Source of the DNA: Candidatus Magasanikiibacteriota bacterium
Lineage (GTDB): Bacteria > Patescibacteriota > Patescibacteriia > Magasanikbacterales > GWA2-37-8
Direction of reading: 5' to 3'
Assembly (NCBI GenBank): GCA_016182085.1
Contig: JACOYB010000006.1
Span: 88,980 to 152,979 of the forward strand
Length of the DNA stretch: 64,000 nucleotides
In this document: positions 35,958 to 47,861 of the stretch, in pieces
Layout of the letters: each line of letters begins with the position of its first letter
Position numbering within the stretch: position 1 is the stretch's first letter
Program-made: the position numbers and the translations under genes
The notes under the pieces: model-generated
Databases searched by the model: none
What the model was told of the DNA's origin: nothing
What the model saw: the letters and a program-made list of their open reading frames with translations, nothing else

Positions 35958-37142
35958 ATGTCAGTAAATACCGGCGCGCAAAAAATCGAGGAGCTGTTAT
36001 CTAGGGGTGTAGAAAATATTTATCCGAAAAAAGAATTTTTGGAATCCAGGCTAAAATCCGGTGAGCAATTAACTTTGTATACCGGCTATGATCCAACTGC
36101 GCCGTCGCTTCATATTGGCCATGGTATTACCATGCTTAAACTGCGCCAATTTCAAGATTTGGGGCACAAAATTATTATGCTTATCGGAGATTTTACCGGC
36201 ATGATTGGCGACCCTACAGACAAAACTTCAGCCAGACAAAAATTAACCCGCAAACAAGTTTTGGAAAATTGCAAAAATTATAAAAAACAAGCAGAGGCTA
36301 TTTTGAATTTCAAAGGTTCAAACAAAGTAGAAGTAAAGTTTAATAGTAAATGGCTTGGTAAAATGAGTTTTGAAGATGTGGTAGAACTATCATCGCATTT
36401 TACTGTGCAAAGAATGTTGGAACGAGATATGTTTGAAAACAGAATGAAAGAAGAAAAGCCAATTTACCTTCATGAATTTTTGTATCCGCTTATGCAAGGC
36501 TATGATAGCGTGGCAATGGATGTGGATGGAGAAGTGGGTGGCAATGACCAGACATTTAATATGTTGGCCGGCCGAACGCTGATGAAAGGTTTAAAAAACA
36601 AAGAAAAATTTGTACTCACTACCAAGTTATTAGTAGATGCCAGTGGAAAGAAAATGGGCAAAACCGAAGGCAACATGGTTTCTCTTTCCGATAAACCGGA
36701 AGATATGTTTGGCAAAGTTATGAGCTGGACAGACGAAATGATGAGCAAAGGATTTGAGCTATGCACCACTTTGCCAATGGATGAGGTAAAGAAGTTGGAA
36801 TCATCTACGCCAAATCCGCGTGATCTAAAATTAAAATTGGCCTTCGAGATTGTAAAAACATTTTTAGGAGAAAAGTTTGCCAAGTCTGCGCAAGAGAATT
36901 TTCACAGGGTTTTTCAAGAAAGATCTAAACCGCAAGAAATTCCAGAATTAAAACCAAGCGTCAATGATATTATTACAGTTTTGGTGGAGTCGCAAATTTG
37001 CAAGAGTAAATCCGAAGCGCGCCAGGTAATAGCCCAGGGCGGGGTAAAAATAAATGATAAGAAGGTAGAAGCTATAGACGTTCAGGTAAAAGCGGGCGAT
37101 GTAGTGCAAAAAGGCAGTAGATTTTTTGTGAAAATTGTTTAG
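35958..37142 (+). CDS. tyrS: tyrosine--tRNA ligase
   Basis: YTGYDPTAPSLHIGHG (HIGH), KMGKT (KMSKS) and C-terminal S4-like domain. Confidence 0.85.
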   Translation: MSVNTGAQKIEELLSRGVENIYPKKEFLESRLKSGEQLTLYTGYDPTAPSLHIGHGITMLKLRQFQDLGHKIIMLIGDFTGMIGDPTDKTSARQKLTRKQVLENCKNYKKQAEAILNFKGSNKVEVKFNSKWLGKMSFEDVVELSSHFTVQRMLERDMFENRMKEEKPIYLHEFLYPLMQGYDSVAMDVDGEVGGNDQTFNMLAGRTLMKGLKNKEKFVLTTKLLVDASGKKMGKTEGNMVSLSDKPEDMFGKVMSWTDEMMSKGFELCTTLPMDEVKKLESSTPNPRDLKLKLAFEIVKTFLGEKFAKSAQENFHRVFQERSKPQEIPELKPSVNDIITVLVESQICKSKSEARQVIAQGGVKINDKKVEAIDVQVKAGDVVQKGSRFFVKIV

Positions 37143-37200
37143 GGAGTAGGGCGTAAGAAGTAAGGAGTAGTGAGTAGAGAAAATTTATCCTTTTTGTGGT

Positions 37201-37292
37201 TCCTCCCCCTATAAGGGGGAGGATAAAGGAGGGGGTTTAAAGACAATAAAAATAAAACCCCACCCTCTGTCCCTCCCCTTATAGGGGAGGGA
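37201..37292. repeat. compound inverted repeat: two ~38-nt arms, each with an internal 9-bp G/C hairpin (TCCTCCCCC-tataa-GGGGGAGGA; TCCCTCCCC-ttata-GGGGAGGGA)
   Basis: The arms are ~85% identical in inverted orientation and separated by AAAGACAATAAAAAT. Preceded by a purine-rich (AGTAG)n tract at 37143-37180. Confidence 0.5.
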
Positions 37293-37331
37293 GCCACCTA
37301 CTAGTAGTCGTGGCAATGACGAATAAAAATT

Positions 37332-39107
37332 ATGGAAAAATTTCTTGGTGAAATAAAAAAAGTATTAAATAAAGTCGGAGTGTCTGGTGAAATTGATCTG
37401 ACAACCCCGCCAAATCCGGAAATGGGTGATTTTGCCTTTGCTTGTTTTAATATTGCTAAAGAGTGGAAAATGAGCCCAGTAGAGGCGGCCAAAACGATTG
37501 AAGCAAGAATCAAGAATTATGAATTAAGAATTATAGACAGAGTACAAGCCATGGGCCCGTACGTTAATTTTTATTTAAAAGCATCAGAGTTAGCTAAAAT
37601 TGTGCTTGGTGAAATTCAGAAAAAAGGTAAAAAATACGGCATAAATAATTCCGGCAAAGGTAAAAAAGTTTTGATTGAGTATCCGTCCAATAATACCCAC
37701 AAAGAATTTCATATTGGCCACCTGCGCAATGTTTGTATTGGAAATTCTTTGGTGCAGCTTTATGAACAAAATGGCTATAAAGTTTATCCGGTAAATTATC
37801 TAAATGATTTTGGCAATCATGTGGCCAAATGTTTGTGGGGCTTAATTAAATTTCATAAAGATGAAAAACCGCCAGCCAATAAACAAAAATGGCTGGGAGA
37901 AATTTACGCGGAGGCTTCAAAAAAATTAACTGAACCCGATGCTTTGGCTATTAAAACACCTGGTTTGGCAGAGCAGGTAGGCGATATGGGTAAAGCTGAA
38001 GATCTTGAATATACAGTACAGAAATATAGAGAAGAAGTCGCTGAAATCCAAAAGCAAATAGAGAGCCAAGACCCAAAGATCTGGAAAGTATTTATGCAAA
38101 CCAGGCAGTGGAGCATAGATAAGTTTGAAGAAATATTTAAACAGTTGGGTGTAGAGCATAAAGCCGTTTTTTATGAAAAAGACCTAAAGGATAAAGGGCA
38201 AAAAATGGTAGATGATTTGCTAAAAAAGGGTATAGCCCAAGTAGGCGAGGGTGGAGCGATTATTATAGATTTAAGCGAATATAAACTTGATATAGCATTG
38301 CTTCGCAAATCAAATGGCGCAGGACTGTATTTAACTAGCGACTTGCCGCTAGCCATGGAAAAGTTCAAAAAATGCAACGCAGACGAAAGTATTGTGATTA
38401 CCGGCACGGAACAAAATTTTTATTTCAAACAACTTTATAAAATTTTGGAACTAATTGGGTTTAACAAAAAGTTAACTCATATTGGCTATGGACTCGTAAA
38501 TCTAAAAGAAGGAAAAATGTCTTCGCGCTTAGGCAATGTTATTTTGTACGAAGATTTATATGCAGAAGTTTTTGCAATGTTAAAAGCCGAATCCGTGGAA
38601 CGACATCCGGATTGGAGTGAGAAGAAGATAAACAACAATGTAAGTGTGCTGGCTATGGCCGCCCTCAAGTTTGATATGCAAAAGCACGAAGCTGCCAAAA
38701 ATATTACTTTTGATGCCAAAGAAGCCACTTCTTTTGAAGGGTTTAGCGGTCTTTATGTACTCTATGCCATCGCCAGAATAAATAGCATTTTAAAACAATC
38801 AAAAAAATCCAAAGCGAAAATAGATTATAATCTGCTGGATAAGCCGGAAGAAAAACACCTGGTATTATTTTTGGCAAAATATGAAGAAGTGGTTAAAAGC
38901 GCTTTGATGAACTACAACCCATCGGAAATTACTCGTTATTCTTTTGATTTAGCGCAATCATTCAATGATTTTTATAACAAACATAGTATTCTGAAAGCGG
39001 AGACAGAAAGTTTGGTGGCCGCTCGTTTGCAGTTAGTTGGCGCCGCCAAAAATGTTTTGGAAAATTCGCTTGGATTGCTCACAATTGGAACTGTAGAGGA
39101 AATGTAA
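37332..39107 (+). CDS. argS: arginine--tRNA ligase
   Basis: HIGH-class motif region (EFHIGHLRN), full ArgRS length, C-terminal anticodon-binding DALR-like region. Confidence 0.9.
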   Translation: MEKFLGEIKKVLNKVGVSGEIDLTTPPNPEMGDFAFACFNIAKEWKMSPVEAAKTIEARIKNYELRIIDRVQAMGPYVNFYLKASELAKIVLGEIQKKGKKYGINNSGKGKKVLIEYPSNNTHKEFHIGHLRNVCIGNSLVQLYEQNGYKVYPVNYLNDFGNHVAKCLWGLIKFHKDEKPPANKQKWLGEIYAEASKKLTEPDALAIKTPGLAEQVGDMGKAEDLEYTVQKYREEVAEIQKQIESQDPKIWKVFMQTRQWSIDKFEEIFKQLGVEHKAVFYEKDLKDKGQKMVDDLLKKGIAQVGEGGAIIIDLSEYKLDIALLRKSNGAGLYLTSDLPLAMEKFKKCNADESIVITGTEQNFYFKQLYKILELIGFNKKLTHIGYGLVNLKEGKMSSRLGNVILYEDLYAEVFAMLKAESVERHPDWSEKKINNNVSVLAMAALKFDMQKHEAAKNITFDAKEATSFEGFSGLYVLYAIARINSILKQSKKSKAKIDYNLLDKPEEKHLVLFLAKYEEVVKSALMNYNPSEITRYSFDLAQSFNDFYNKHSILKAETESLVAARLQLVGAAKNVLENSLGLLTIGTVEEM

Positions 39108-39112
39108 AATAT

Positions 39113-40150
39113 TTGTTGAATATTTTGTTTATGGCGCAAGACAATTATAAGTCGTGGCTTATCAATACAGAAGATTTTCCTAAGGAGTCTGCGCTACCGG
39201 CGCAGCTTAAATTTTTATTGCAGTTTGCGATTTTGGCTCCCTCTACGCACAATTCTCAGCCTTGGCAGTTCAAAATAGATAGCAACAAGATTTATATTTT
39301 GCCAAATTTTGATAAAGCGCTGCCTGTGGGAGATAAGGAAAACCATTTTCTTTTTTTAAGTTTGGGTTGCGCGTTAGAAAATTTATTAGTCGCGGCGCAG
39401 TATTATGGTTTTAGTTTTATAATAAAATATCCTTCTTCTGGTGACAAAAAAATTGAAATTACTCTTACAAAAATAGAAAAGTCGGGCGTTGCAGAAGAAA
39501 GCCTGGTTTCTTATATCGCCAAGCGCATTACGAATCGTCATAAGTTTACAGATAAGTTGCCGGCAGAAGAATTTTTAAATACAGTTCGTAGTTTGGGCAC
39601 AGAAAGTATGAGTGTAGATGTGCTTTCTCCGGGAGAAAAAAATAATAAGGTAAAACAGCTAGTGGGGAGAATCACTCCCAAGTTATTAAATGAGCCAAGT
39701 TTTCGCAGGGAATTATCCGGCTATGTAAAAACAAATATTACAAAATCAAAATTTGGGATGCCGGCTTTTGTGATGGATGTTCCCAACTTTTTATCTCTTT
39801 TTGTGCCAACCATACTAAAGTTTGTAAATATTGAAAAATTAAATAAAAAAAAGCAGGAGGGCGCCATAAGCGCCGCGATTTTTATTGTGATTAGCGCTAA
39901 AAATAACAACGAAGAAGATTGGGTTAAAACCGGACAAGCTTTTCAGAAAATTAATTTGTTGGCTACAAAATTTAATTTATTTACTCATCCAATGGCCGCG
40001 CCTTTACACGATATAGAAAGCCGTAAGGAATTGCAGGAAATATTACAGACCAGCTTTAATCCGCACTTTTTGTTTCGTCTTGGGTACGGAGCGGTAGAAC
40101 CAAAGCATAGTCCGCGAATGACAGTAGACGATTGTATGATCGTAGAATAG
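39113..40150 (+). CDS. nitroreductase-family protein (double nitroreductase fold, Acg-like)
   Basis: APSTHNSQPWQF matches the nitroreductase FMN-site signature. The 345-aa length suggests tandem half-domains. Confidence 0.5.
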   Translation: MLNILFMAQDNYKSWLINTEDFPKESALPAQLKFLLQFAILAPSTHNSQPWQFKIDSNKIYILPNFDKALPVGDKENHFLFLSLGCALENLLVAAQYYGFSFIIKYPSSGDKKIEITLTKIEKSGVAEESLVSYIAKRITNRHKFTDKLPAEEFLNTVRSLGTESMSVDVLSPGEKNNKVKQLVGRITPKLLNEPSFRRELSGYVKTNITKSKFGMPAFVMDVPNFLSLFVPTILKFVNIEKLNKKKQEGAISAAIFIVISAKNNNEEDWVKTGQAFQKINLLATKFNLFTHPMAAPLHDIESRKELQEILQTSFNPHFLFRLGYGAVEPKHSPRMTVDDCMIVE

Positions 40151-40156
40151 TAATTT

Positions 40157-41227
40157 ATGGATATTTCTAAGTATAAAAATTTAAAAGAGTTTGATAGCCA
40201 TGCTTTGGTTGTAGAGTTGGATGAGCCAAGCGTTGGTTTAAAAGGTTTTATAGCTATAGATAGAAAAGCCGAAAATTTTCCAGCCTTGGGAGCTACTCGT
40301 TTGTGGAAGTATCCTTTGGAAGAGGACGCTTTAAATGATGCTCTGCGTTTGGCAAAGTTAATGGGTAAAAAATCAGCGATGGCAGGCCTGCCTTATACAG
40401 GCGCCAAAGCGGTGCTTATGTTGCCCGAAGAAGGAATAAAGAATCGCGAAGAATATTTTAAAGTATATGCTCAAAAAGTAAATGAACTCTCTGGTCAGTT
40501 TATTACCGGTACGGATGTTGGTTTGACCGATAATGATCTAGAGATAATGAGCAAAAATTCTAAATTTGTAATTGGAATGAATGTTCCGGCGGCGTATTAT
40601 ACAGCTGTCGGTGTTTTTAATGTTATTAGAGAAAGTTTGGAATATAAATTTGGCAGTGAAAATATTTCCAGCAGAACTTTTGCTATACAAGGTTTGGGAA
40701 AAACGGGTTATGAATTATTAAAATTACTGTATGCAGAAGGGGCAAAAATATTTGTTTCCGAAATAAATATAGATATTTTAGAACAAGTTTGTCGTGATTT
40801 TCCCCTGGTAAAAAAAGTTTTACCGGCAGATATACATAAGCAAGAAGTGGATGTTTTTTGTCCTTGCGCTATGAGTCATTCTATAAATAGTCGCACGGTC
40901 AGCGAATTGAAGTGTGTGATTGTGGCTGGTTCTGCAAACAACCAGCTAGAAGATGAAGAGGCGGGAGAAAAACTGCATAAGATGGGCATTGTGTATGCTC
41001 CGGATTATTTATCAAATTCCGGCGGTTTGATTAGCGTGGTAGATCAATTTGAAAATAAAAAACATGACAATAAAAGAATATTATTAAAATTGAGCAAGAT
41101 ACCGGCAGTTTTACGAGCTATTTTTTTAAGAAGTGAAAAAGAGCGCAGATCGATTAGTAGTGTTGCAGACGATATGGTGCAAGAATCTTTAGTCAAAGAG
41201 GTTAGTGTTGGGGTGCGTAGTTATTAA
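40157..41227 (+). CDS. Glu/Leu/Phe/Val-family amino-acid dehydrogenase
   Basis: LGATRLWKY...AGLPYTGAKAV (catalytic-Lys region of LeuDH/PheDH type) and GLGKTGYEL Rossmann motif. Confidence 0.6.
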   Translation: MDISKYKNLKEFDSHALVVELDEPSVGLKGFIAIDRKAENFPALGATRLWKYPLEEDALNDALRLAKLMGKKSAMAGLPYTGAKAVLMLPEEGIKNREEYFKVYAQKVNELSGQFITGTDVGLTDNDLEIMSKNSKFVIGMNVPAAYYTAVGVFNVIRESLEYKFGSENISSRTFAIQGLGKTGYELLKLLYAEGAKIFVSEINIDILEQVCRDFPLVKKVLPADIHKQEVDVFCPCAMSHSINSRTVSELKCVIVAGSANNQLEDEEAGEKLHKMGIVYAPDYLSNSGGLISVVDQFENKKHDNKRILLKLSKIPAVLRAIFLRSEKERRSISSVADDMVQESLVKEVSVGVRSY

Positions 41228-42767
41228 ATATAGTATGAATAAATATTTTTTAAGCTTATATAAAAAAAGCCTTGTTTCCAAGCTATCTTTTCTTAAAAGA
41301 AAAGATTCTGAAGTTATGGACAGAGTGGGGGAAAAGGAATCAGTTAAATTGTTTAACTTTGTAAGTAGGCGCGTGGTTGCGTACCAAAAATTTTTAAAAG
41401 AAAATAAAGTAGCTATCAAAAAGATTGTAAATATTAAAGACTTTAAAAAATTACCATTAATTTCAAAAGAAAATTATATAAGAAAGCACGATTTAGCAGA
41501 TTTGCTCCCCCCCAAAGAATTTGCCAACGCTACTACTTTTTCTGCCACTTCCGGCTCTACAGGTGAGCCGACGTTTTTTCCGCGCGGCGAAGATCAGGAC
41601 AAGAATTATGAATTTATTTCTGAAATATTTTTAACAAATCAACTCGGTCTGTCCAAGAAAAAAAGTACGCTTGTTATAATAGGTTTTGGACTGGGTGTTT
41701 GGATAGGCGGTATTTTTACTTATAAAAATTTTAATAAATTGGCCAGCAAGGGCTACAAGATATCTATATTGCCGGTCGGTCCTCAAAAAGACATGTTTCT
41801 AAAGTCTCTAAAGAAATTTGGAAGATTGTTTGATCAAGTTATTTTGGCAGGTTATCCGCCTTTTATCAAGGATATAGTTGATGAAAGCGCTGGTTATGGC
41901 ATTGATTGGGCTAAATGCAATACAAAAATTTTAACCGCAGCCGAGAGCTATTCGGAAGATTTTAGAGACTATATTGCAAAAAAAATTAAAGCCAAAAATA
42001 TTTTTACTGATTTTATAAATATATATGGAACAGTCGAGTTGGGAACTATGGCGCACGAAACCCCTTTGGCAATTTTGATACGCAGATTAGCCTGCAAAAA
42101 TAAAGATATTTTTAAGGCAGTTTTTAACAATTCTGCCAGGCTTCCTACGTTGGGGCAGTATCATCCGTATCTGGTTTATTTCGAAGAGTTAGAGGGCGAA
42201 TTGGTAGGAACGGGTGTTGGTTCATCCATACCATTAATTCGTTACAAATTTGCCGATCGCGGGGGCGTTATTTCTTTTAAAGAGATGGTAGGGCGCCTAA
42301 AGAGTGTGGGGGTAGATATTATAAAAGAAGCTGCAAAAAATGGAATTGGTAAAACTGTTCTTAATCTTCCGTTTGTATATGTATATGAGAGAAGTGATTT
42401 GGTCGTAAATTTAATGGGAATAAATATATATCCGGAGTATATTAAAAGCGGGTTGCAAAAAAGCGGCATAGAAGAAAAAGTTACCGGTAAATTTTCTATG
42501 GCGACTAAAAATGATAAAAATCAGGATCAGTTTTTGGAAATTAATGTGGAATTAAAAAATGGCGAAGCGCCCTCATCGCAGTTGGTAAAATTAATTGAAA
42601 ATTTTGTTGTGATTTCCTTGCAAGAAAAATCCACGGAGTATGATTATTTGTACAAAAATAGTTCGGAAGAATCCAGGAAAAAAATAACTCCCAAAGTTTT
42701 ATTATTTAATTATGAAGATAAAACCTATTTTGCTCCCGGAGCAAAGCAGAAATGGGTCTTAAAATAA
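41205..42767 (+). CDS. adenylate-forming enzyme of the PaaK / CapK / coenzyme F390 synthetase-like family
   Basis: TSGSTGEPTFFP resembles the SSGTTG.P phosphate-binding loop of PaaK-type ligases. Start may be ATG 41235. Confidence 0.5.
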   Translation: MLGCVVIKYSMNKYFLSLYKKSLVSKLSFLKRKDSEVMDRVGEKESVKLFNFVSRRVVAYQKFLKENKVAIKKIVNIKDFKKLPLISKENYIRKHDLADLLPPKEFANATTFSATSGSTGEPTFFPRGEDQDKNYEFISEIFLTNQLGLSKKKSTLVIIGFGLGVWIGGIFTYKNFNKLASKGYKISILPVGPQKDMFLKSLKKFGRLFDQVILAGYPPFIKDIVDESAGYGIDWAKCNTKILTAAESYSEDFRDYIAKKIKAKNIFTDFINIYGTVELGTMAHETPLAILIRRLACKNKDIFKAVFNNSARLPTLGQYHPYLVYFEELEGELVGTGVGSSIPLIRYKFADRGGVISFKEMVGRLKSVGVDIIKEAAKNGIGKTVLNLPFVYVYERSDLVVNLMGINIYPEYIKSGLQKSGIEEKVTGKFSMATKNDKNQDQFLEINVELKNGEAPSSQLVKLIENFVVISLQEKSTEYDYLYKNSSEESRKKITPKVLLFNYEDKTYFAPGAKQKWVLK

Positions 42768-43837
42768 TTTTTATGCAGTTTCCAATTATATTGGCTGAAG
42801 GCAGTTACAACCAAGCAGATTTGGATTTGTTAATAAAAAATAACGAGATCGTAAAAACGGTTGATATTTATGCTCAGCAAATGACCGAGTATTTTGAAAT
42901 TTCAAACCCAGCCTTGAAGGGGAGTACAGATTTGCCCGCGGCCGCAAAAAAGTATGTGGATGAAAATATGAGCAAGGGAAAGCTCTTTGGTAGTTGGATA
43001 TATTATCCTTGGAGCAGGGTTTTGGTTCACTCGGTAACGCAGGATAAATATTTTGAACTGCGAACTAACCGTAATAAAAATTTAATAGATGCAAAAGAAC
43101 AAGAAAAGCTGTATAATTTAAATGTGGGCGTGCTCGGGCTATCTATAGGGAGCAGTATGGCCATTGGTTTGGCATATAGCGCCATAGCAGGGCAAATGAA
43201 GTTGGCAGATTTTGATACTCTGTCTACTTCTAATTTAAACAGGTTGAAAGCGAAGATGTCCGATGTGGGAAGAAAAAAAATAGAGATAGCCGCGGAACAG
43301 ATATTTGAAATAAATCCGTATCAAAATCTAGAGCTATTTGAAAATGGAGTAGATAAAAATTCGTTGGATAGTTTTTTGGCAGAAAACCCTAAACCGGAAT
43401 TAATTTTTGAAGCAATTGATGATTTTGAAATAAAAATTCGTCTGCGTATGGCGGCGCGAAATCTGGGTATTCCGGTTATTATGTTGACCAACTTGGGCGA
43501 TAGCTTGCTTGTAGATGTGGAAAGATACGACAAGGATAAAACAACCCCTATTTTAAATGGGATGATTGAGCAGTCGGTGGTAGAAGAGATTTTGTCTGGG
43601 CGCTGTAGTGAGGCGGATAAAAATAGATTTGCCGTACAGGTGGTGGGTGTAGAAAATGTGCCCAAGAGAGCGATGGATTCTCTAAAAGAGATAGGGTTAA
43701 GCCTTGTCGGTCGCCCGCAGCTTATGAGCACAGTTACGATAGGGGGCGGTCTAGCTTCTTTTTTAGCTAGGAAGATTGCTCTTGGAGAAGATTTGCCAAG
43801 TGGAAGAAAAATAATAAAGTGGGATGAGCTAATTTAA
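42752..43837 (+). CDS. ThiF/MoeB/E1-like adenylyltransferase with ~95-aa N-terminal extension
   Basis: RNKNLIDAKEQEKLYNLNVGVLGLSIGSSMAIGLAYSAIAG...ADFDTLSTSNLNR aligns with the ThiF nucleotide-binding region. No C-terminal CxxC pair. Confidence 0.6.
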   Translation: MGLKIIFMQFPIILAEGSYNQADLDLLIKNNEIVKTVDIYAQQMTEYFEISNPALKGSTDLPAAAKKYVDENMSKGKLFGSWIYYPWSRVLVHSVTQDKYFELRTNRNKNLIDAKEQEKLYNLNVGVLGLSIGSSMAIGLAYSAIAGQMKLADFDTLSTSNLNRLKAKMSDVGRKKIEIAAEQIFEINPYQNLELFENGVDKNSLDSFLAENPKPELIFEAIDDFEIKIRLRMAARNLGIPVIMLTNLGDSLLVDVERYDKDKTTPILNGMIEQSVVEEILSGRCSEADKNRFAVQVVGVENVPKRAMDSLKEIGLSLVGRPQLMSTVTIGGGLASFLARKIALGEDLPSGRKIIKWDELI

Positions 43838-43841
43838 TTTT

Positions 43842-44717
43842 ATGGATGCGGAGAAAAAACTCGCAGACAAAATGGGGGTGAGCTATAAAATTAATCAGTG
43901 TTTAATAGACGGTTTTAACATTAATTATTTGGTGGCCGGAGAAGGCGAGCCGTTATTGCTCATACATGGGGCAAACATAGGCTGGGGAATGTGGTATTTA
44001 AATATACCGGAGTTGTCAAAAAAATATAAAGTTATCGCCCTAGACTTGCCTGGTGCCGGCGTTTCCGATAGCTTAGATTTTAAAAATATTGACCTGGAAA
44101 AAATATTTGTTCAGTTAATAGAAAACTTTTTGCATTTTTTAGAAGTAGATAATATAAGGGTGGTTGGGCATTCTTTCGGCGGTTGGATCGCCATGAAGCT
44201 GGCTATTGTGAGTAAGATAAATATTAAAAAAATTGTACTAAGCGATTCTTTGGGGTTTAGTACAAGTATTCCGGCATCTCAGTGGCCTGCAACGGTTGGC
44301 GCGCTCGCAAAATTTATTTCTAAAACATTTTTTAGAGCTACAAGATCAAACATGGATAGGTTTTTAAGCAGCGCTTTTTATAGTAAAACGTCTGTATCCG
44401 AATTGTTTTATCAGTATTATTTTGAATCATTGCTTGGTTCCGATATGCGCCACCCTTTATTATTTTTTAACGGGCTGTCATCTTTTTTGAGAATGCGGAA
44501 AGAATTAGATTTGAGAAGTAGCCTTAGTTTAATTAAGCAGCCGGTATTGGTGGTATGGGGAAGCGAAGACAAAAACGTAGTATATAAAAATAGTAAAGAT
44601 TTTTTTAAACTAATACCAAACCATAAGGTGGAGATTATAAAAGAGGCAGGGCATGTGCCGTCTTTAGAAAAAAGTAATTTATTTAACAGTTTGGTTTTAA
44701 ATTTTTTTCAAGATTAA
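43842..44717 (+). CDS. alpha/beta-fold hydrolase
   Basis: HGANIGW oxyanion region and GHSFGG nucleophile elbow. Confidence 0.6.
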   Translation: MDAEKKLADKMGVSYKINQCLIDGFNINYLVAGEGEPLLLIHGANIGWGMWYLNIPELSKKYKVIALDLPGAGVSDSLDFKNIDLEKIFVQLIENFLHFLEVDNIRVVGHSFGGWIAMKLAIVSKINIKKIVLSDSLGFSTSIPASQWPATVGALAKFISKTFFRATRSNMDRFLSSAFYSKTSVSELFYQYYFESLLGSDMRHPLLFFNGLSSFLRMRKELDLRSSLSLIKQPVLVVWGSEDKNVVYKNSKDFFKLIPNHKVEIIKEAGHVPSLEKSNLFNSLVLNFFQD

Positions 44718-44727
44718 TTAGTATAGT

Positions 44728-46347
44728 ATGTTGGGGGACGTTTTATATTTTAAAGAAGTTATCGTTGGGGCCGTGGTGATTTGTAATATACTTATTACTT
44801 ACGCGGTATATGTAAGTAATAAAAAAAGCGCCACAAATAGAGTATTTTTGCTGTTAGGCCTAGTCATCTCTTTTTGGCTTTTAGCCATGTATTTATCGGT
44901 AAATCCTCAGGTAAACCTATTTTGGACGCGCCAGAGCGCTTTTTGGGCCACGTTTATGAGCTTTTTGCTATTTTTGCTGGCCTATGTTTTGCCGGGAGAA
45001 AGGTTTTTGTTAAGTAAAAAGAACCTTTTTTATACAGTCGCACCAACGATTTTTATAACAGCCTTGACATTTACGCCTTATGTTTTTGAAAAAATAACTA
45101 TTAGCGCCGCAGGTTCAAAGGTGGCTGTGGGATTTGGGATAATTCCATTTAGTTTACTCACAACATTTTTTAGCGTATTCGCTGTTTATTTATTATTAAA
45201 AAAATTACACAAGTCATCACAAGTGGAGCGTCGCCAGCTGGGACTTGTTTTAACAGGATTTTTCTTAATGCTCGGACTCATCATTTTTACGATTCTAATC
45301 CCCGTTATTTTTTTAAGAGATAATTTTTTTGTTCAGTTTGCGCCGGTGTATGTTTTTTTCTTCTTGGCCGCTACCGCTATCGCAATCATAAAGTATCATT
45401 TGTTTAATATTAAAGTTATTGCCACAGAGGTCTTAGTATTGATTTTGATAATGGTTTTATTAATTGAAGGCGCTCTCTCCGGTTCTATATTTACAGTTAT
45501 TTTTAAAGTCTCATTTGCGATTTTGGTAGGTATTATCGGTATTTTATTGGTACGAAGCGTGCAAAAAGAAATTAAACAAAAAGATGAATTATCTAATCTG
45601 GCTGCTTCTTTGGAAAAAGCCAATACGCGTTTGCAAGAACTGGATAAACAGAAAACCGAATTTTTAACAATTGCCTCTCATCAGCTGCGCACCCCGCTTT
45701 CTATTTTAAAAGGATATATAGAGCTGATAAAAGACGGTAGTTATGGCAAGATTGAACCTGCTACAGCCAAAGTATTGGATGATATGGATCTTAACAACGA
45801 GCATTTGGTAAAGTTGGTAGATACGCTACTCGATATTACTCGCATCGAACAGGGCCGCACTAAATATTCATTTGCCATGAATAATATCTGTGCTTTAATT
45901 GACGAATCAGTAAGCGACTTAAAATTAAAAGCTAAAGAAAAGAAAATGAAATTAGTTTGGACATGTCCTAAGAAAATGACTGATGTGTGCTGTGATCAAG
46001 AAAAAATGCACCATGTTATTTATAACTTTATTGATAACGCCTTAAAGTATAGCGAGAAAGGTTCTGTAAAAGTAACGCTGAAAGAAGAAGGTGGGGGCAT
46101 TGCGATGAAGGTAGTCGACAATGGGATTGGCTTTAATAAAGTGGATGAAAATAATTTTTTTCATAAATTTTATCGCGGTGACAATGTACGGACTATTGGC
46201 ATCAGCGGCACCGGTTTGGGGCTCTATGTCTGCCGAAAATTCGTGGAAGCGCATAGCGGCCGGGTGTGGGCTCATAGCGAAGGATTGGGAAAAGGCAGTG
46301 AATTTGGCTTTTGGATTCCGGTTAAACCCCCCGCTCCAGCCGGGTAG
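44728..46347 (+). CDS. multi-pass membrane sensor histidine kinase
   Basis: ~7 N-terminal TM helices. H-box TIASHQLRTPL, N-box DNALKY, G1 VDNGIGF, G2 GTGLGL. No response regulator in window. Confidence 0.75.
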   Translation: MLGDVLYFKEVIVGAVVICNILITYAVYVSNKKSATNRVFLLLGLVISFWLLAMYLSVNPQVNLFWTRQSAFWATFMSFLLFLLAYVLPGERFLLSKKNLFYTVAPTIFITALTFTPYVFEKITISAAGSKVAVGFGIIPFSLLTTFFSVFAVYLLLKKLHKSSQVERRQLGLVLTGFFLMLGLIIFTILIPVIFLRDNFFVQFAPVYVFFFLAATAIAIIKYHLFNIKVIATEVLVLILIMVLLIEGALSGSIFTVIFKVSFAILVGIIGILLVRSVQKEIKQKDELSNLAASLEKANTRLQELDKQKTEFLTIASHQLRTPLSILKGYIELIKDGSYGKIEPATAKVLDDMDLNNEHLVKLVDTLLDITRIEQGRTKYSFAMNNICALIDESVSDLKLKAKEKKMKLVWTCPKKMTDVCCDQEKMHHVIYNFIDNALKYSEKGSVKVTLKEEGGGIAMKVVDNGIGFNKVDENNFFHKFYRGDNVRTIGISGTGLGLYVCRKFVEAHSGRVWAHSEGLGKGSEFGFWIPVKPPAPAG

Positions 46348-46427
46348 TTGGTTTTTTTATAAAAATAGTATATAATTACTCTGTATAATTTAATCATTTT
46401 TTCACTACATAATTAATATCCATTACT

Positions 46428-46898
46428 ATGATTTTCCAAAGAAATTCCTCCAAAGTGGCTCCAGAAAATAATGAGCCAGAAGTTCTTGATGAATCGCGAC
46501 CGGATATTCATGATGAAGTGGAAACCGTGGTTGGTCCATCGGTAAATGTAGAGGGTGATTTTGCCTCCGAAGGAAATATCGTTGTAAAAGGAACGGTATC
46601 GGGCAGCGTGTTTACCAGCAAACATTTAACCGTGGAAATGGGCGCAAAGATTATTGCCAATGTCCGGGCAGGCAGCGCTACAATTGCCGGAGAGGTAAAG
46701 GGAAATATGAAAATTAAGGAGTCGCTTGAATTAACTTCCACGTCAAAAGTTATTGGCGATATAGACATGAAAGATTTGAGGATTGAATCCGGTGCGACGC
46801 TGTATGGTAAAGTAACCATGCCGGGAGTAGAAGCTGAAAAACCGATCAAAACAAAAACTTTTAAAAAATCCGAAGAAGCCGCGCCGCTTTTTGGTTAA
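46428..46898 (+). CDS. bactofilin-family cytoskeletal protein
   Basis: Repetitive beta-helical V.G...G.V.G..I pattern (IVVKGTVSGSV, ATIAGEVKGNM, KVIGDIDM..LRIESGATLYGKV) typical of DUF583. Confidence 0.6.
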   Translation: MIFQRNSSKVAPENNEPEVLDESRPDIHDEVETVVGPSVNVEGDFASEGNIVVKGTVSGSVFTSKHLTVEMGAKIIANVRAGSATIAGEVKGNMKIKESLELTSTSKVIGDIDMKDLRIESGATLYGKVTMPGVEAEKPIKTKTFKKSEEAAPLFG

Positions 46899-46934
46899 AT
46901 TGGTTTGAAAAAGGAGTAAGAGCCTACTGGTGTT

Positions 46935-47699
46935 ATGTATGTGTATATCTACGACAATTTTTTACGTCAAAAAAATTTTCTTCCCATCGTCCACTCCATG
47001 GAAGTCGTACTTACCGACTACGGCATAGCTGGAAAAATTTTACGCTTGCAGAATTACACGGATTGTAAAACTATTATTGAGGATGAGATAAAGCGCGGCG
47101 CCAAAACCATCGTGATTGTTGGCAACGACGCCACGTTTGGACAAATTCTGTCTCGCAGCGCCACCGCCAATTGTACGTTTGGTTTTTTGCCTGTGGGACC
47201 AAACAACACCATTGCCGAAGTCTTGGGCATTCCGGTTGGAGTAGAAGCCTGTACGGTGCTTTCACGCCGCCGCAAAGAGTTTTTGGATGTGGGGTGGATG
47301 AATAACAGATATTTTGTTTCCCAGCTAAAAGTCATGCCTTCTAATTTGGAGGTAGTTTATGATGAGCGATTTAAAGTAACGGCCACTGATAAAATGGAAG
47401 TAATTGTTTGTAATTTGCAGCCATTTTTTTGGAAGCGGGATAAAAAAGATAAAGAACAGCACGTGGTACATCCCCAAGATGGCAAGCTGGAAGCCTTTAT
47501 TAGGCCATTGACAAAAAGCGGCTGGTGGGGATATAAATATGAGGAACCAAGCATTTTTCCCTTTGAAGAAATGATAATTACCGGTCGGGAACCCTTTACC
47601 GTGGAAGCCGACGGAAAGATATCTAAAGAGATTAAGGTAAAAATAAAGCTGGCTCATAGCAAGGTAGAGATGATTGTTGGCAGGGATAGAAAATTTTAA
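46935..47699 (+). CDS. diacylglycerol-kinase-catalytic-domain (YegS/BmrU-like) lipid kinase, with variant Gly-rich loop
   Basis: IYDN, VIVGNDATFGQI (in place of GGDGT) and FGFLPVGPNNTIAEVLGIP match DAGK_cat topology. Confidence 0.6.
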   Translation: MYVYIYDNFLRQKNFLPIVHSMEVVLTDYGIAGKILRLQNYTDCKTIIEDEIKRGAKTIVIVGNDATFGQILSRSATANCTFGFLPVGPNNTIAEVLGIPVGVEACTVLSRRRKEFLDVGWMNNRYFVSQLKVMPSNLEVVYDERFKVTATDKMEVIVCNLQPFFWKRDKKDKEQHVVHPQDGKLEAFIRPLTKSGWWGYKYEEPSIFPFEEMIITGREPFTVEADGKISKEIKVKIKLAHSKVEMIVGRDRKF

Positions 47700-47707
47700 A
47701 TATTAAT

Positions 47708-47791
47708 GCCCAGGTGGCGAAATTGGTAGACGCACTACCTTGAGGTGGTAGCTCTCGCAAGGGAATGGAGGTTCGAGTCCTCTCCTGGGCA
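47708..47791 (+). tRNA. tRNA-Leu (anticodon GAG), long variable arm, no encoded CCA
   Basis: Cloverleaf folds by hand: acceptor GCCCAGG/CCTGGGC, anticodon stem CTACC/GGTAG, loop TTGAGGT, T-loop TTCGAGT. Confidence 0.8.
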
Positions 47792-47861
47792 CTGAAGAAG
47801 TCTCTCCTTTAACTTTTTAGAGAAAAGTGCTACTATTTAAGTAGTATTTTTAACATTCTTT

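What the first reader, a model, noticed from the sequence alone, without database searches (positions are those of the whole stretch)
42752..43837. E1-like enzyme with intact ATP-binding motifs, an N-terminal ~95-aa extension and no C-terminal CxxC
The ThiF core (GxGxxG-like VGVLGLSIGS and DFD..S.SNLNR) begins only at ~residue 95. The N-terminal domain (MQFPIILAEGSYNQADLDLLIKNNEIVK...WIYYPWSRVLVHSV) is not part of sulfur-carrier E1s such as ThiF/MoeB. The C-terminal zinc tetrad of MoeB/ThiF is also absent. This domain layout, an N-terminal substrate-recognition domain plus an active E1, is what MccB/PaaA-type peptide-adenylating enzymes have.
Basis: partly seen in the sequence, partly recalled or inferred. 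Interest (0 to 1): 0.6.

Follow-up and report, generated by a model that had tools for sequence, protein, structure and literature searches.

The report
Split oxazolone-synthetase-like cyclase in CPR bacterium
The E1-like gene is real, but it is not a peptide-modifying enzyme: it is the stand-alone cyclase half of an oxazolone-synthetase-like enzyme (the family of Mycobacterium tuberculosis TrzS/Rv1355c), and it sits in a gene cassette, conserved across the tiny-genome Patescibacteria, that always ends in a membrane sensor kinase.

Summary
The ORF at 42752-43837 (+) is 361 aa. It has a folded, conserved N-terminal extension of about 96 aa, all ThiF adenylation residues, one Cys and no CxxC.

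The MccB/PaaA reading is not supported. The N-terminal domain matches no solved structure, including MccB, PaaA and RRE folds. The operon has no room for a precursor-peptide gene.

The best family match is NCBIfam 'Rv1355c family' (E 4e-85), and it covers the N-terminal extension. [quoted passage not shown] Here the oxidase half is a separate Acg-family gene at 39113-40150.

In 79 species-representative genomes, mostly Patescibacteria, the ThiF gene is linked to:
- a PaaK-like adenylate-forming ligase (75/79);
- the oxidase (72/79);
- a 7TM histidine kinase (70/79);
- optionally a Leu/Phe/Trp-type dehydrogenase (34) or an alpha/beta-hydrolase (31).

Fusion proteins join these enzymes. The N-acyltransferase of all characterised oxazolone pathways is absent. 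I infer that the ligase replaces it.

Verdict: a new variant of a known kind. The product may be a signal read by the linked kinase; that step is inferred.

The parts
42752..43837 (+). ThiF-like (E1-like) ATP-dependent cyclase, 361 aa; stand-alone homologue of the N-terminal half of TrzS/Rv1355c
   Evidence: ORF. Pfam ThiF over residues 107-244. NF005901 'Rv1355c family' E 4e-85, query 13-361 against profile 15-339 of 722. 35% identity, E 1e-68, to P0279 'Rv1355c family protein'. AF2 pLDDT 92.
42752..43039 (+). N-terminal extension (residues 1-96): a folded beta-alpha-beta-alpha-alpha-beta-beta domain with the hallmark motif G80-x-W-I-Y-Y-P-W87-S (42989-43015). It is a hallmark of this ThiF/Rv1355c-type family; its role is unknown.
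   Evidence: Invariant Q43, E46, G80, W87. High pLDDT. Shared with Rv1355c-family fusion proteins. No Pfam family. No PDB fold or sequence match.
43040..43837 (+). ThiF adenylation core: Arg-finger helix RTNRN (R107, 43070-43072), P-loop G129-G133 (43136-43150), D155 (43214-43216), N163/R164 (43238-43243), K176 (43277-43279), D223 (43418-43420; equivalent by motif to TrzS D217)
   Evidence: Invariant columns. Coordinates. Alignment to MoeB. Foldseek top hits are AclA, ThiF, MoeB, PaaA, Uba5 and TcdA, core only. Role of TrzS D217: PMC12856293.
39113..40150 (+). Acg-family flavin-dependent oxidase (nitroreductase superfamily), 345 aa; the separate counterpart of the C-terminal half of TrzS
   Evidence: NF047509 at 205.5 bits, above the cut-off of 199. 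It also matches Rv1355c profile positions 370-654. PDB 2YMV Acg, E 1e-8. 31% identity to the C-terminal half of P0279. Present in 72/79 loci and fused to ThiF in 4 loci and 39 of the top 150 representatives.
40157..41227 (+). Leu/Phe/Trp-type amino-acid dehydrogenase (ELFV family), 356 aa; accessory, probably supplies a precursor
   Evidence: Pfam ELFV. ScyB-like E 9e-73, below cut-off. PDB leucine dehydrogenase E 5e-65 and tryptophan dehydrogenase E 2e-54. Present in 34/79 loci. Never found together with a divergent aminotransferase present in 20 loci.
41205..42767 (+). PaaK-like adenylate-forming ligase, about 510-520 aa, of an unnamed family. It is the gene most tightly linked to the ThiF gene. 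[quoted passage not shown]
   Evidence: No Pfam hit. Weak PaaK/F390 matches in 31-33 of 36 members. Profile against PDB PaaK, E 2e-11. Motifs SGSTGEP, YERxD and the C-terminal Lys are conserved. Present in 75/79 loci, mostly immediately upstream of ThiF. LIG-ThiF and ELFV-LIG-ThiF fusion proteins exist.
43842..44717 (+). alpha/beta-hydrolase, 291 aa; accessory, possibly opens or transfers the oxazolone
   Evidence: Pfam Abhydrolase_1, E 5e-25. Present in 31/79 loci. Fused as NR-ABH in 8 loci and ThiF-ABH in 2 loci; the representatives include two ThiF-ABH proteins and one ThiF-NR-ABH protein.
44728..46347 (+). Sensor histidine kinase with a membrane-embedded HisKA_7TM sensor, 539 aa; the 3' end of the cassette
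   Evidence: Pfam HisKA_7TM, HisKA and HATPase_c. A kinase is present in 70/79 loci, and the 7TM sensor part itself is conserved in 69/79. Terminator-like hairpin at 46336-46351.

Best explanation
The gene encodes the ThiF-like, ATP-dependent cyclase subunit of a split oxazolone-synthetase-like enzyme, the same kind as OxzB, TyzB+TyzC and TrzS (Rv1355c).

Proposed pathway:
1. Inferred: the upstream PaaK-like ligase adenylates a carboxylic acid and joins it to an amino acid, giving an N-acyl amino acid. It would replace the acyl-CoA-dependent N-acyltransferase of the known pathways. The acid may come from an amino acid through the Leu/Phe/Trp-type dehydrogenase, or through an aminotransferase in other lineages.
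2. Inferred from homology and intact catalytic residues: the ThiF-like enzyme adenylates the free carboxylate of that N-acyl amino acid. The amide oxygen then attacks and closes an oxazol-5(4H)-one ring.
3. Inferred from homology: the Acg-family flavin-dependent oxidase, encoded three genes upstream, desaturates C-alpha/C-beta.
4. Speculative: the alpha/beta-hydrolase, where present, opens or transfers the reactive ring.
5. Inferred from linkage only: the product, or a signal controlling its synthesis, is read by the co-inherited 7TM histidine kinase.

The roughly 96-aa N-terminal domain is a hallmark of this ThiF/Rv1355c-type family, not a peptide clamp. Because it is also present in relatives that lack the ligase, it most likely shapes the small-molecule substrate pocket or the oligomer interface. 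That last point is a guess.

What is shown directly: the domain layout, the family assignment, and the conservation and fusions of the cassette.
For: Family assignment:
- NF005901 'Rv1355c family' scores E 4e-85 over query residues 13-361. The next ThiF-type models score about 1e-20.
- The protein is 35% identical, E 1e-68, over residues 11-361 to P0279, which NCBI names 'Rv1355c family protein'. The match includes the GxWIYYPWS motif.
- ThiF-oxidase fusion proteins of 740-770 aa match from query residue about 11-40 through 360.
- The Acg-family oxidase in the same operon passes its curated cut-off and matches the C-terminal half of the Rv1355c profile.

Catalytic residues: they are invariant, including D223, the motif equivalent of TrzS D217, whose mutation abolishes cyclisation.

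Biochemistry of the family, from papers: OxzB, TyzBC and TrzS carry out ATP-dependent cyclisation plus O2-dependent desaturation of N-acyl Tyr, Phe or Trp to oxazolones.

Cassette conservation in 79 species-representative loci: ligase 75, oxidase 72, kinase 70, dehydrogenase 34, hydrolase 31. Gene order varies, but the ligase precedes ThiF and the kinase closes the array. The kinase's 7TM sensor domain is conserved in 69/79 loci.

Fusion proteins: ThiF-NR, LIG-ThiF, ELFV-LIG-ThiF, ThiF-ABH, NR-ABH and ThiF-NR-ABH.

Ligase: it keeps the adenylate-forming motifs.

Operon: spacing runs from -23 to +10 nt.

Independent support for the kinase link: three Bacteroidia-type ThiF-oxidase fusion loci (L088, L089, L091; only L088's protein cluster is named Bacteroidia) sit next to a 7TMR-DISM kinase and response regulators. 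L090, a fused variant, has the CPR-type cassette.
Against: - No biochemistry exists for any member of the CPR clade.
- Identity to fusion proteins that NCBI names as Rv1355c family is only 35-41%. I had no sequence of a characterised enzyme (TrzS, TyzB, OxzB) for a direct comparison.
- The 286-bit score is below the 476-bit cut-off of the full-length fused model. This is expected for a half-protein, but the equivalog test is formally not passed.
- The N-acyl amino acid synthase that accompanies every characterised system is absent from the window and from all 79 loci. The substrate of the ThiF enzyme is therefore not established.
- The ligase resembles PaaK only distantly (E about 1e-10). It could make a CoA thioester or something else.
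- The oxidases of known systems need O2, and the oxygen relations of these CPR organisms were not examined here.
- The kinase link is genomic only. It fits 'kinase regulates the operon' as well as 'kinase senses the product'.
- No response regulator was found in the window with one query.
- Model coordinates could not be inspected, so the position of the N-terminal domain relative to the active site is unknown.
Confidence: 0.6

Rival explanations
1. One reading: an MccB/PaaA-type RiPP enzyme. The N-terminal domain would be an RRE or peptide clamp holding a ribosomal precursor peptide, and the E1 core would adenylate its C-terminal or side-chain carboxylate.
For: The layout is the same in outline: an N-terminal domain of about 95 aa plus an active E1 core without a Zn tetrad. 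PaaA (5ff5) and MccB (3h9g, 3h5a) are among the Foldseek hits. The MccB alignments are longer, 317-348 columns.
Against: - The MccB alignments have rmsd of about 10-11 A and no better TM-score than ThiF or MoeB.
- The N-terminal domain alone hits nothing in the PDB (best E 1.6), and its profile hits no PDB sequence.
- Its secondary-structure order differs from that of RREs (own knowledge).
- PaaA matches by sequence at E 1.9e-4, over the core only.
- There is no room for a precursor gene in the operon, and no plausible small ORF in the flanking gaps.
- The same N-terminal domain occurs in the Rv1355c/TrzS family, which acts on small molecules (PMC12856293).
- The conserved partners are a ligase, a flavin oxidase and a dehydrogenase. 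No peptidase, transporter or precursor is among them.
Confidence: 0.04
2. A housekeeping E1-like enzyme: a ThiF/MoeB-type activator of a sulfur-carrier or ubiquitin-like protein, or a TcdA-type tRNA t6A dehydratase. Some source annotations call homologues by these names.
For: The Pfam ThiF domain is present and ThiF/MoeB/TcdA models give weak hits. JGI names some homologues 'tRNA threonylcarbamoyladenosine dehydratase' or 'molybdopterin/thiamine biosynthesis adenylyltransferase'. TcdA also lacks the Zn tetrad and performs a cyclodehydration (own knowledge).
Against: - All curated cut-offs are missed by a wide margin: TcdA 34 bits against 304, MoeB 59 against 266, ThiF 71 against 159. The Rv1355c model gives 286 bits.
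- There is no CxxC and no other Cys to act as a persulfide or thioester site.
- No ThiS/MoaD/Ubl-like small ORF is nearby.
- Strict linkage to a flavin oxidase, a ligase and a kinase is not expected for these housekeeping roles.
Confidence: 0.04
3. Same enzymology (ligase, then ThiF cyclase, then oxidase), but the product is not a signal. It would be an end-product metabolite (antimicrobial, membrane or redox-protective lipid, or N-acyl-dehydroamino acid after hydrolysis). The 7TM kinase would simply regulate the operon in response to an unrelated membrane or environmental cue.
For: - N-acyl dehydrotyrosines from ThiF/nitroreductase clusters include compounds with reported antimicrobial activity (PMC12856293 discussion; PMC12479983).
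- The Mtb tyz locus is linked to oxidative-stress resistance, and Acg to dormancy.
- The hydrolase and the NR-ABH fusions would fit ring opening to dehydro-amino acids.
- Kinases commonly regulate adjacent operons (own knowledge).
Against: - The kinase's sensor domain is co-conserved with the enzymes across very divergent CPR classes, while other neighbours vary.
- A different type of 7TM kinase is recruited next to the fused enzyme in the Bacteroidia-type loci.
- Both sensor types are membrane-embedded, as is typical for receptors of lipophilic ligands (own knowledge).

None of this excludes the rival.
Confidence: 0.3

Closest known systems
TrzS (Rv1355c, formerly 'MoeY') of Mycobacterium tuberculosis / M. 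smegmatis; NCBIfam NF005901
   Same: - Best family match, full length including the N-terminal extension (E 4e-85).
- 35% identity to a protein NCBI names as this family.
- The conserved adenylation Asp is present.
- An Acg-type flavin-dependent oxidase is the partner.
   Different: - Here the cyclase and oxidase are separate genes, three genes apart, whereas TrzS is one fused protein of about 720 aa.
- There is no TrzA-type N-acyltransferase; a PaaK-like ligase stands in its place.
- An amino-acid dehydrogenase, a hydrolase and a 7TM kinase are linked.
- The host is a Patescibacterium, not a mycolic-acid actinobacterium.
TyzB + TyzC (Rv2338c/Rv2337c) of M. tuberculosis
   Same: Split arrangement: a stand-alone ThiF-like cyclase plus a stand-alone flavin-dependent oxidase in one operon. 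Together they carry out ATP-dependent cyclisation and desaturation of an N-acyl amino acid (PMC10404671).
   Different: TyzB is 318 aa, and I had no sequence to test whether it has the same N-terminal domain. TyzA, an acyl-CoA N-acyltransferase, is adjacent there and absent here.
OxzB/OxzA oxazolone synthetase of Pseudoalteromonas rubra
   Same: The ThiF plus nitroreductase-family pair acts on a small molecule rather than a protein, peptide or tRNA.
   Different: OxzB is a fused di-domain protein. It is paired with the N-acyltransferase OxzA and uses fatty acyl-CoA. No ligase or kinase link has been reported for it.
MccB (microcin C7) and PaaA (pantocin A)
   Same: An E1-like core with an extra N-terminal domain of about 90-120 aa, no sulfur chemistry, and carboxylate adenylation followed by intramolecular attack.
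   Different: Their N-terminal domain is an RRE or peptide clamp, and a precursor-peptide gene is adjacent. Neither feature is found here. Sequence similarity is limited to the core.
Autoinducer synthase / membrane sensor kinase pairs such as CqsA/CqsS (an analogy from own knowledge, not homology)
   Same: Small-molecule biosynthetic genes are directly linked to a kinase whose sensor is a bundle of transmembrane helices with no large periplasmic domain.
   Different: There is no sequence relationship. The signalling role here is inferred only from conserved linkage.

Membership tests
Oxazolone-synthetase ThiF-like cyclases (Rv1355c/TrzS family, NF005901; with OxzB, TyzB) | Sequence homology to the ThiF half of the family over its full length, including the region N-terminal to the Pfam ThiF domain | tested here: met
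   E 4e-85, query 13-361 against profile 15-339. 35% identity, E 1e-68, to P0279 'Rv1355c family protein', with a shared GxWIYYPWS motif.
Oxazolone-synthetase ThiF-like cyclases (Rv1355c/TrzS family, NF005901; with OxzB, TyzB) | Passes NCBI's curated whole-protein cut-off for the equivalog model (476 bits for a fused 722-position model) | tested here: not met
   286 bits. The protein covers only the first half of the model, and the oxidase half is a separate gene. It is therefore not an equivalog of the fused TrzS.
Oxazolone-synthetase ThiF-like cyclases (Rv1355c/TrzS family, NF005901; with OxzB, TyzB) | Intact adenylation residues (P-loop, Arg finger, Asn/Arg, Lys, and the catalytic Asp equivalent to TrzS D217) | tested here: met
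   G129, G133, R107, D155, N163, R164, K176 and D223 are invariant in 53 homologues. The equivalence to D217 rests on motif position, not on a direct alignment to TrzS.
Oxazolone-synthetase ThiF-like cyclases (Rv1355c/TrzS family, NF005901; with OxzB, TyzB) | Fused to, or encoded next to, an Acg-type flavin-dependent oxidase | tested here: met
   An Acg-family oxidase lies in the same operon. It is present in 72/79 loci, with fusions in 4 loci and in 39 of the top 150 representatives.
Oxazolone-synthetase ThiF-like cyclases (Rv1355c/TrzS family, NF005901; with OxzB, TyzB) | Adjacent N-acyl amino acid synthase (OxzA/TyzA/TrzA/NasY type) | tested here: not met
   None is present in the operon. 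No conserved family of that size occurs in the 79 loci. The unnamed 227-238 aa partner protein of the Bacteroidia-type fused loci, whose identity as an acyltransferase is itself only faintly supported (FeeM, E 0.08), has no homologue in those loci.
Oxazolone-synthetase ThiF-like cyclases (Rv1355c/TrzS family, NF005901; with OxzB, TyzB) | ATP-dependent cyclisation of an N-acyl amino acid to an oxazolone | not testable with these tools
   This needs enzyme assays.
MccB/PaaA-type RiPP E1-like enzymes | N-terminal RRE / peptide-clamp (winged-helix) domain | tested here: not met
MccB/PaaA-type RiPP E1-like enzymes | Adjacent precursor-peptide gene | tested here: not met
   Intergenic distances run from -23 to +10 nt. 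The flanking gaps hold no plausible + strand small ORF.
ThiF/MoeB sulfur-carrier E1 enzymes | Two CxxC motifs (Zn site), a carrier protein with a GG terminus nearby, and passing the curated model cut-offs | tested here: not met
   One Cys and no CxxC. No small GG-terminal ORF. All ThiF/MoeB models score far below their cut-offs.
TcdA (tRNA ct6A synthase) | Passes the curated TcdA model (304 bits) | tested here: not met
   34 bits, E 1.9e-8.

The most novel reading that the evidence does not exclude
The cassette is a self-contained chemical signalling module of Patescibacteria (CPR). A CoA-independent route (PaaK-like ligase, then ThiF cyclase, then flavin oxidase) would build an amino-acid-derived oxazolone or dehydro-amino-acid signal, and the co-inherited 7TM histidine kinase would be its receptor. 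A parallel version would exist in the Bacteroidia-type loci: fused ThiF-oxidase, a small partner protein of unknown function, and a 7TMR-DISM kinase. If so, oxazolones would be a widespread and so far unrecognised class of bacterial autoinducers. That would also answer the open question of what the mycobacterial tyrazolones and tryptazolones are for.
Probability: 0.3. Interest if true: 0.85.

Novelty: new variant of a known kind. Interest (0 to 1): 0.6.

Why it matters
Small-molecule ThiF-like enzymes were recognised only in 2021-2025 (OxzB, TyzB, TrzS), and the physiological role of their oxazolone products is still unknown. Three things here could move that forward.

1. The cassette is conserved in many classes of Patescibacteria. 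To my knowledge these have genomes of about 1 Mb and very little biosynthetic capacity, so keeping 4-6 genes for one product implies an important function.
2. The acyl-CoA N-acyltransferase of every known pathway is replaced by an unnamed PaaK-like ligase family, often with an amino-acid dehydrogenase or aminotransferase. This points to a different, probably CoA-independent way of making the N-acyl amino acid, and to new products.
3. The strict linkage to a conserved 7TM sensor kinase, seen again with a different 7TM kinase in Bacteroidia-type loci, gives a directly testable hypothesis that oxazolones are signals.

It also corrects database names for these proteins ('tRNA threonylcarbamoyladenosine dehydratase', 'molybdopterin/thiamine biosynthesis adenylyltransferase').

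Tried and rejected
- A literature search for AclA of Tenacibaculum discolor (9egb), the top structural hit for the core, found nothing in the held library. Its function was not used in the argument.
- The promoter/terminator scan is uninformative: counts equal the shuffled expectation. The one exception is a terminator-like hairpin at the kinase stop codon.
- One response-regulator query found no regulator in the window. This is not an exhaustive search.
- Rfam and tRNA scans found nothing relevant near the cassette.
- In the actinobacterial locus L084, the 524-aa gene upstream of the ThiF-oxidase fusion has a weak AMP-binding hit. Its similarity to the window ligase is marginal (E 9e-4 over 59 aa), so I did not count it as the same family.
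- An aromatic ammonia-lyase next to the cassette looked like a third precursor-supplying option. It occurs in only 2 of 79 loci.
- I could not obtain the sequences of characterised TrzS, TyzB or OxzB. The link to them rests on the NCBIfam model and on a protein NCBI names as Rv1355c family.


Full report
**1. The observation**

The ORF at 42752..43837 (+) exists and encodes 361 aa. An identical public protein of 354 aa, annotated from the second ATG at 42773, comes from a Candidatus Magasanikbacteria MAG. The window is therefore from a Patescibacteria (CPR) genome. A GGAG lies 10 nt upstream of the first ATG. Homology to relatives starts at residue 9-11, so the choice of start does not affect the extension.

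Pfam places the ThiF domain at residues 107-244. An AlphaFold2 model built on 53 homologues (mean pLDDT 92, pTM 0.90) puts the first core helix, carrying the RTNRN motif, at residues 97-108.

The expected adenylation residues are all invariant across the 53 sequences: G129, S131, G133, D155, N161, N163, R164, K176 and D223. There is one cysteine and no CxxC.

Residues 11-96 are confidently folded as beta12-16, alpha21-30, beta35-38, alpha40-51, alpha61-73, beta81-85, beta90-94. They contain invariant Q43, E46, G80 and W87 and a G-x-W-I-Y-Y-P-W-S motif.

**2. What the protein is**

Against NCBIfam the best hit by far is NF005901, 'Rv1355c family protein': E 4e-85, 286 bits, query 13-361 on profile positions 15-339 of 722. 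ThiF, MoeB, TcdA and related models reach only 1e-20 to 1e-8, all far below their cut-offs. The match includes the N-terminal extension.

A search of 1.84 billion representative proteins found 945 clusters at E<=1e-30. Stand-alone proteins of about 350-390 aa come first. Proteins of 740-770 aa follow from E about 1e-66; they match from query residue about 11-40 through 360 and carry a nitroreductase-family C-terminal half. One of these clusters contains a protein that NCBI itself names 'Rv1355c family protein [Bacteroidia bacterium]' (P0279). It is 35% identical to the window protein over residues 11-361 (E 1e-68) and shares the WIYYPWS motif.

Rv1355c was characterised in December 2025 as TrzS. 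[quoted passage not shown] It performs ATP-dependent cyclisation and then O2-dependent desaturation of N-acyl-tryptophan to an N-acyl tryptazolone. D217A in the ThiF motif abolishes cyclisation (PMC12856293).

Related systems are OxzAB of Pseudoalteromonas rubra and TyzACB of M. tuberculosis, where the cyclase and oxidase are separate proteins (PMC10404671). A 2025 review, which predates the TrzS paper, lists OxzB as the only validated ThiF-like enzyme acting on a small molecule (PMC12596934).

**3. The partner genes**

Three genes upstream, 39113-40150 encodes an Acg-family FMN oxidoreductase. It scores 205.5 bits on NF047509 (cut-off 199), also matches positions 370-654 of the Rv1355c profile, and matches PDB 2YMV Acg. 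Together the window encodes both halves of TrzS as separate genes.

Between and after them lie four more genes:
- A Leu/Phe/Trp-type amino-acid dehydrogenase at 40157-41227.
- A protein of about 510-520 aa at 41205-42767 with no Pfam family. It is distantly PaaK-like and keeps the adenylate-forming motifs SGSTGEP and YERxD and a conserved C-terminal Lys.
- An alpha/beta-hydrolase at 43842-44717.
- A histidine kinase with a HisKA_7TM membrane sensor at 44728-46347.

The genes are separated by -23 to +10 nt, and a terminator-like hairpin sits at the kinase stop codon.

**4. Conservation**

Ten neighbourhoods read through gene-call tables showed the same set of genes in shuffled order.

A scan of one genome per GTDB species gave 255 relatives, and the best 79 distinct loci were analysed. 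By their record titles they are mostly Patescibacteria, spanning many candidate phyla: Saccharibacteria/Saccharimonadales, Magasanikbacteria, Woesebacteria, Woykebacteria, Gottesmanbacteria, Roizmanbacteria, Doudnabacteria, Staskawiczbacteria, Kaiserbacteria, Liptonbacteria and Lloydbacteria. A few are Marinamargulisbacteria, Actinomycetota and a Polyangiaceae MAG. Several TPA records are labelled 'uncultured Gammaproteobacteria', yet one of them (L017) has the same gene order as the window from the oxidase to the kinase, and its record also shows the upstream tRNA synthetases and the downstream bactofilin and kinase-like genes. I therefore doubt those labels.

Using the window proteins as phmmer queries on all ORFs of these loci, the counts were:

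| Component | Loci (of 79) |
|---|---|
| PaaK-like ligase | 75 |
| Oxidase | 72 |
| Histidine kinase | 70 |
| Dehydrogenase | 34 |
| Hydrolase | 31 |

Most absences are at contig ends. The ligase usually lies immediately upstream of ThiF, and the kinase closes the array. The kinase's 7TM sensor region, not just its catalytic core, is conserved in 69 loci. A single-domain response regulator is present in 34 loci.

Fusions link the components: ThiF-oxidase, oxidase-hydrolase, ThiF-hydrolase, ligase-ThiF (863 aa), dehydrogenase-ligase-ThiF (1242 aa) and ThiF-oxidase-hydrolase (1010 aa).

A class-I/II aminotransferase, divergently transcribed upstream of the ligase, occurs in 20 loci and never together with the dehydrogenase. 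The hypergeometric P for zero overlap is 1.2e-6, not corrected for phylogeny.

No N-acyl amino acid synthase is present in the window cassette. No conserved family of that kind occurs in the 79 loci.

**5. The wider family and the kinase link**

In three loci of fused Rv1355c-family proteins (L088, L089, L091) the order is: response regulator (opposite strand), ThiF-oxidase, an unnamed 227-238 aa protein (faint FeeM N-acyl amino acid synthase hit, E 0.08), a 7TMR-DISM sensor kinase, then a hybrid kinase/regulator. L088's protein cluster is named Bacteroidia; the other two share the same layout.

A further fused variant, L090, has dehydrogenase, ligase, ThiF-oxidase, hydrolase, HisKA_7TM kinase and response regulator.

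Linkage of this enzyme pair to a 7TM sensor kinase is therefore seen with two unrelated types of sensor domain. I found no paper in the held library that reports this linkage or the CPR cassette. The TrzS paper notes only that oxazolones resemble signalling molecules and that trzAS is next to c-di-GMP genes.

**6.

The whole-protein model matches AclA (9egb), ThiF, MoeB, PaaA, Uba5 and TcdA through the core, over about 260-277 columns. MccB alignments are longer but have rmsd 10-11 A and no better TM-score.

The beta-alpha-beta-alpha-alpha-beta-beta order is not the three-strands-then-three-helices order of RREs (own knowledge). There is no space for a precursor gene inside the array. The two nearest gaps (189 and 80 nt) contain only shadow ORFs.

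The MccB/PaaA reading is therefore not supported. The broader idea does hold: this is a non-canonical, active E1-like enzyme of specialised metabolism with an extra domain. The extension is a hallmark of the Rv1355c-type ThiF domain. Because it is also present in fused relatives that lack the ligase, its role is probably intrinsic to the cyclase, such as forming a small-molecule pocket or an interface.

**7. Mechanism, and how sure each step is**

Shown:
- The domain layout and catalytic motifs.
- Family membership at the level of homology.
- The split arrangement.
- The conserved, fusion-linked cassette.

Inferred from characterised homologues (about 0.7): the ThiF protein adenylates the carboxylate of an N-acyl amino acid and closes an oxazolone ring, and the Acg-type oxidase desaturates it.

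Inferred from context (about 0.5): the PaaK-like ligase makes the N-acyl amino acid without an acyl-CoA acyltransferase, possibly from an acid supplied by the dehydrogenase or aminotransferase. This would suit organisms that, to my knowledge, generally lack fatty-acid and CoA biosynthesis. Other ANL-superfamily enzymes, such as GH3 amido synthetases and coronafacate ligase, form amides with amino acids (own knowledge).

Speculative: the hydrolase opens or transfers the ring. N-acyl-dehydrotyrosines are known from ThiF/nitroreductase clusters (PMC12479983).

Inferred from linkage (about 0.3): the product is the ligand of the 7TM kinase.

**8. Novelty and verdict**

The enzyme is a new, stand-alone member of a recently characterised kind. 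The cassette around it is a new variant: the ligase stands in place of the acyltransferase, accessory enzymes supply a precursor, and kinase linkage is almost universal across the sampled loci. As far as the held literature shows, this variant is undescribed.

The finding as written is half right: the architecture is correct and the family is wrong. What lies behind it is more interesting than either a routine ThiF or another RiPP enzyme. Interest 0.6.

Noticed in passing
L088 5326-12598; L089 5377-12255; L091 5443-12683: In Bacteroidia-type loci the fused Rv1355c-family ThiF-oxidase gene is flanked by a response regulator (opposite strand), an unnamed 227-238 aa protein (faint FeeM hit), a 7TMR-DISM sensor kinase and a hybrid kinase/regulator. 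This is a second, independent linkage of the enzyme pair to a 7TM kinase.
   Followed up: partly
L036-L086 (20 loci), e.g. L038 6274-7443 (-): A class-I/II aminotransferase is divergently transcribed just upstream of the ligase in 20 loci. It is never found together with the ELFV dehydrogenase, which occurs in 34 loci (P 1.2e-6, uncorrected). It may be a functional substitute or simply lineage-specific synteny.
   Followed up: partly
window 35958-39107: The tyrosyl- and arginyl-tRNA synthetase genes lie directly upstream of the cassette; ArgRS ends 5 nt before the oxidase gene. The same order occurs in the relative L007/L017. The 189-nt TyrRS-ArgRS gap has no Rfam match.
   Followed up: partly
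window 46428-47792: A bactofilin gene, a DAGK-type lipid kinase-like gene and tRNA-Leu(GAG) follow the kinase. Bactofilin and the kinase-like gene are syntenic in 8-9 related loci.
   Followed up: no
window 7752-14528: A very large ORF of 2258 aa on the + strand. It was not examined.
   Followed up: no
window 1-64000: GC skew is positive in all but one 2-kb bin, the cumulative skew rises almost monotonically, and nearly all long ORFs are on the + strand. The window lies on one replichore with strong gene-strand bias.
   Followed up: no
L002 5356-6864 (= L016 6338-7855); L068 5756-7306 (-): An aromatic amino-acid ammonia-lyase (PF00221) lies next to the cassette in 2 of 79 loci. It could supply cinnamate-type acids to the ligase.
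   Followed up: partly
L009, L011, L013, L017, L023, L026, L027, L062, L067, L070, L083 (record titles): Several TPA MAG records carrying the CPR-type cassette are titled 'uncultured Gammaproteobacteria bacterium'. L017 has the same gene order as the Magasanikbacteria window, so the labels look unreliable.
   Followed up: no
PDB 9egb (AclA, Tenacibaculum discolor): This is the best structural match of the ThiF core: a roughly 250-aa ThiF-like protein solved with substrate and released in 2025. No paper about it is in the held library, so its chemistry could not be compared.
   Followed up: partly
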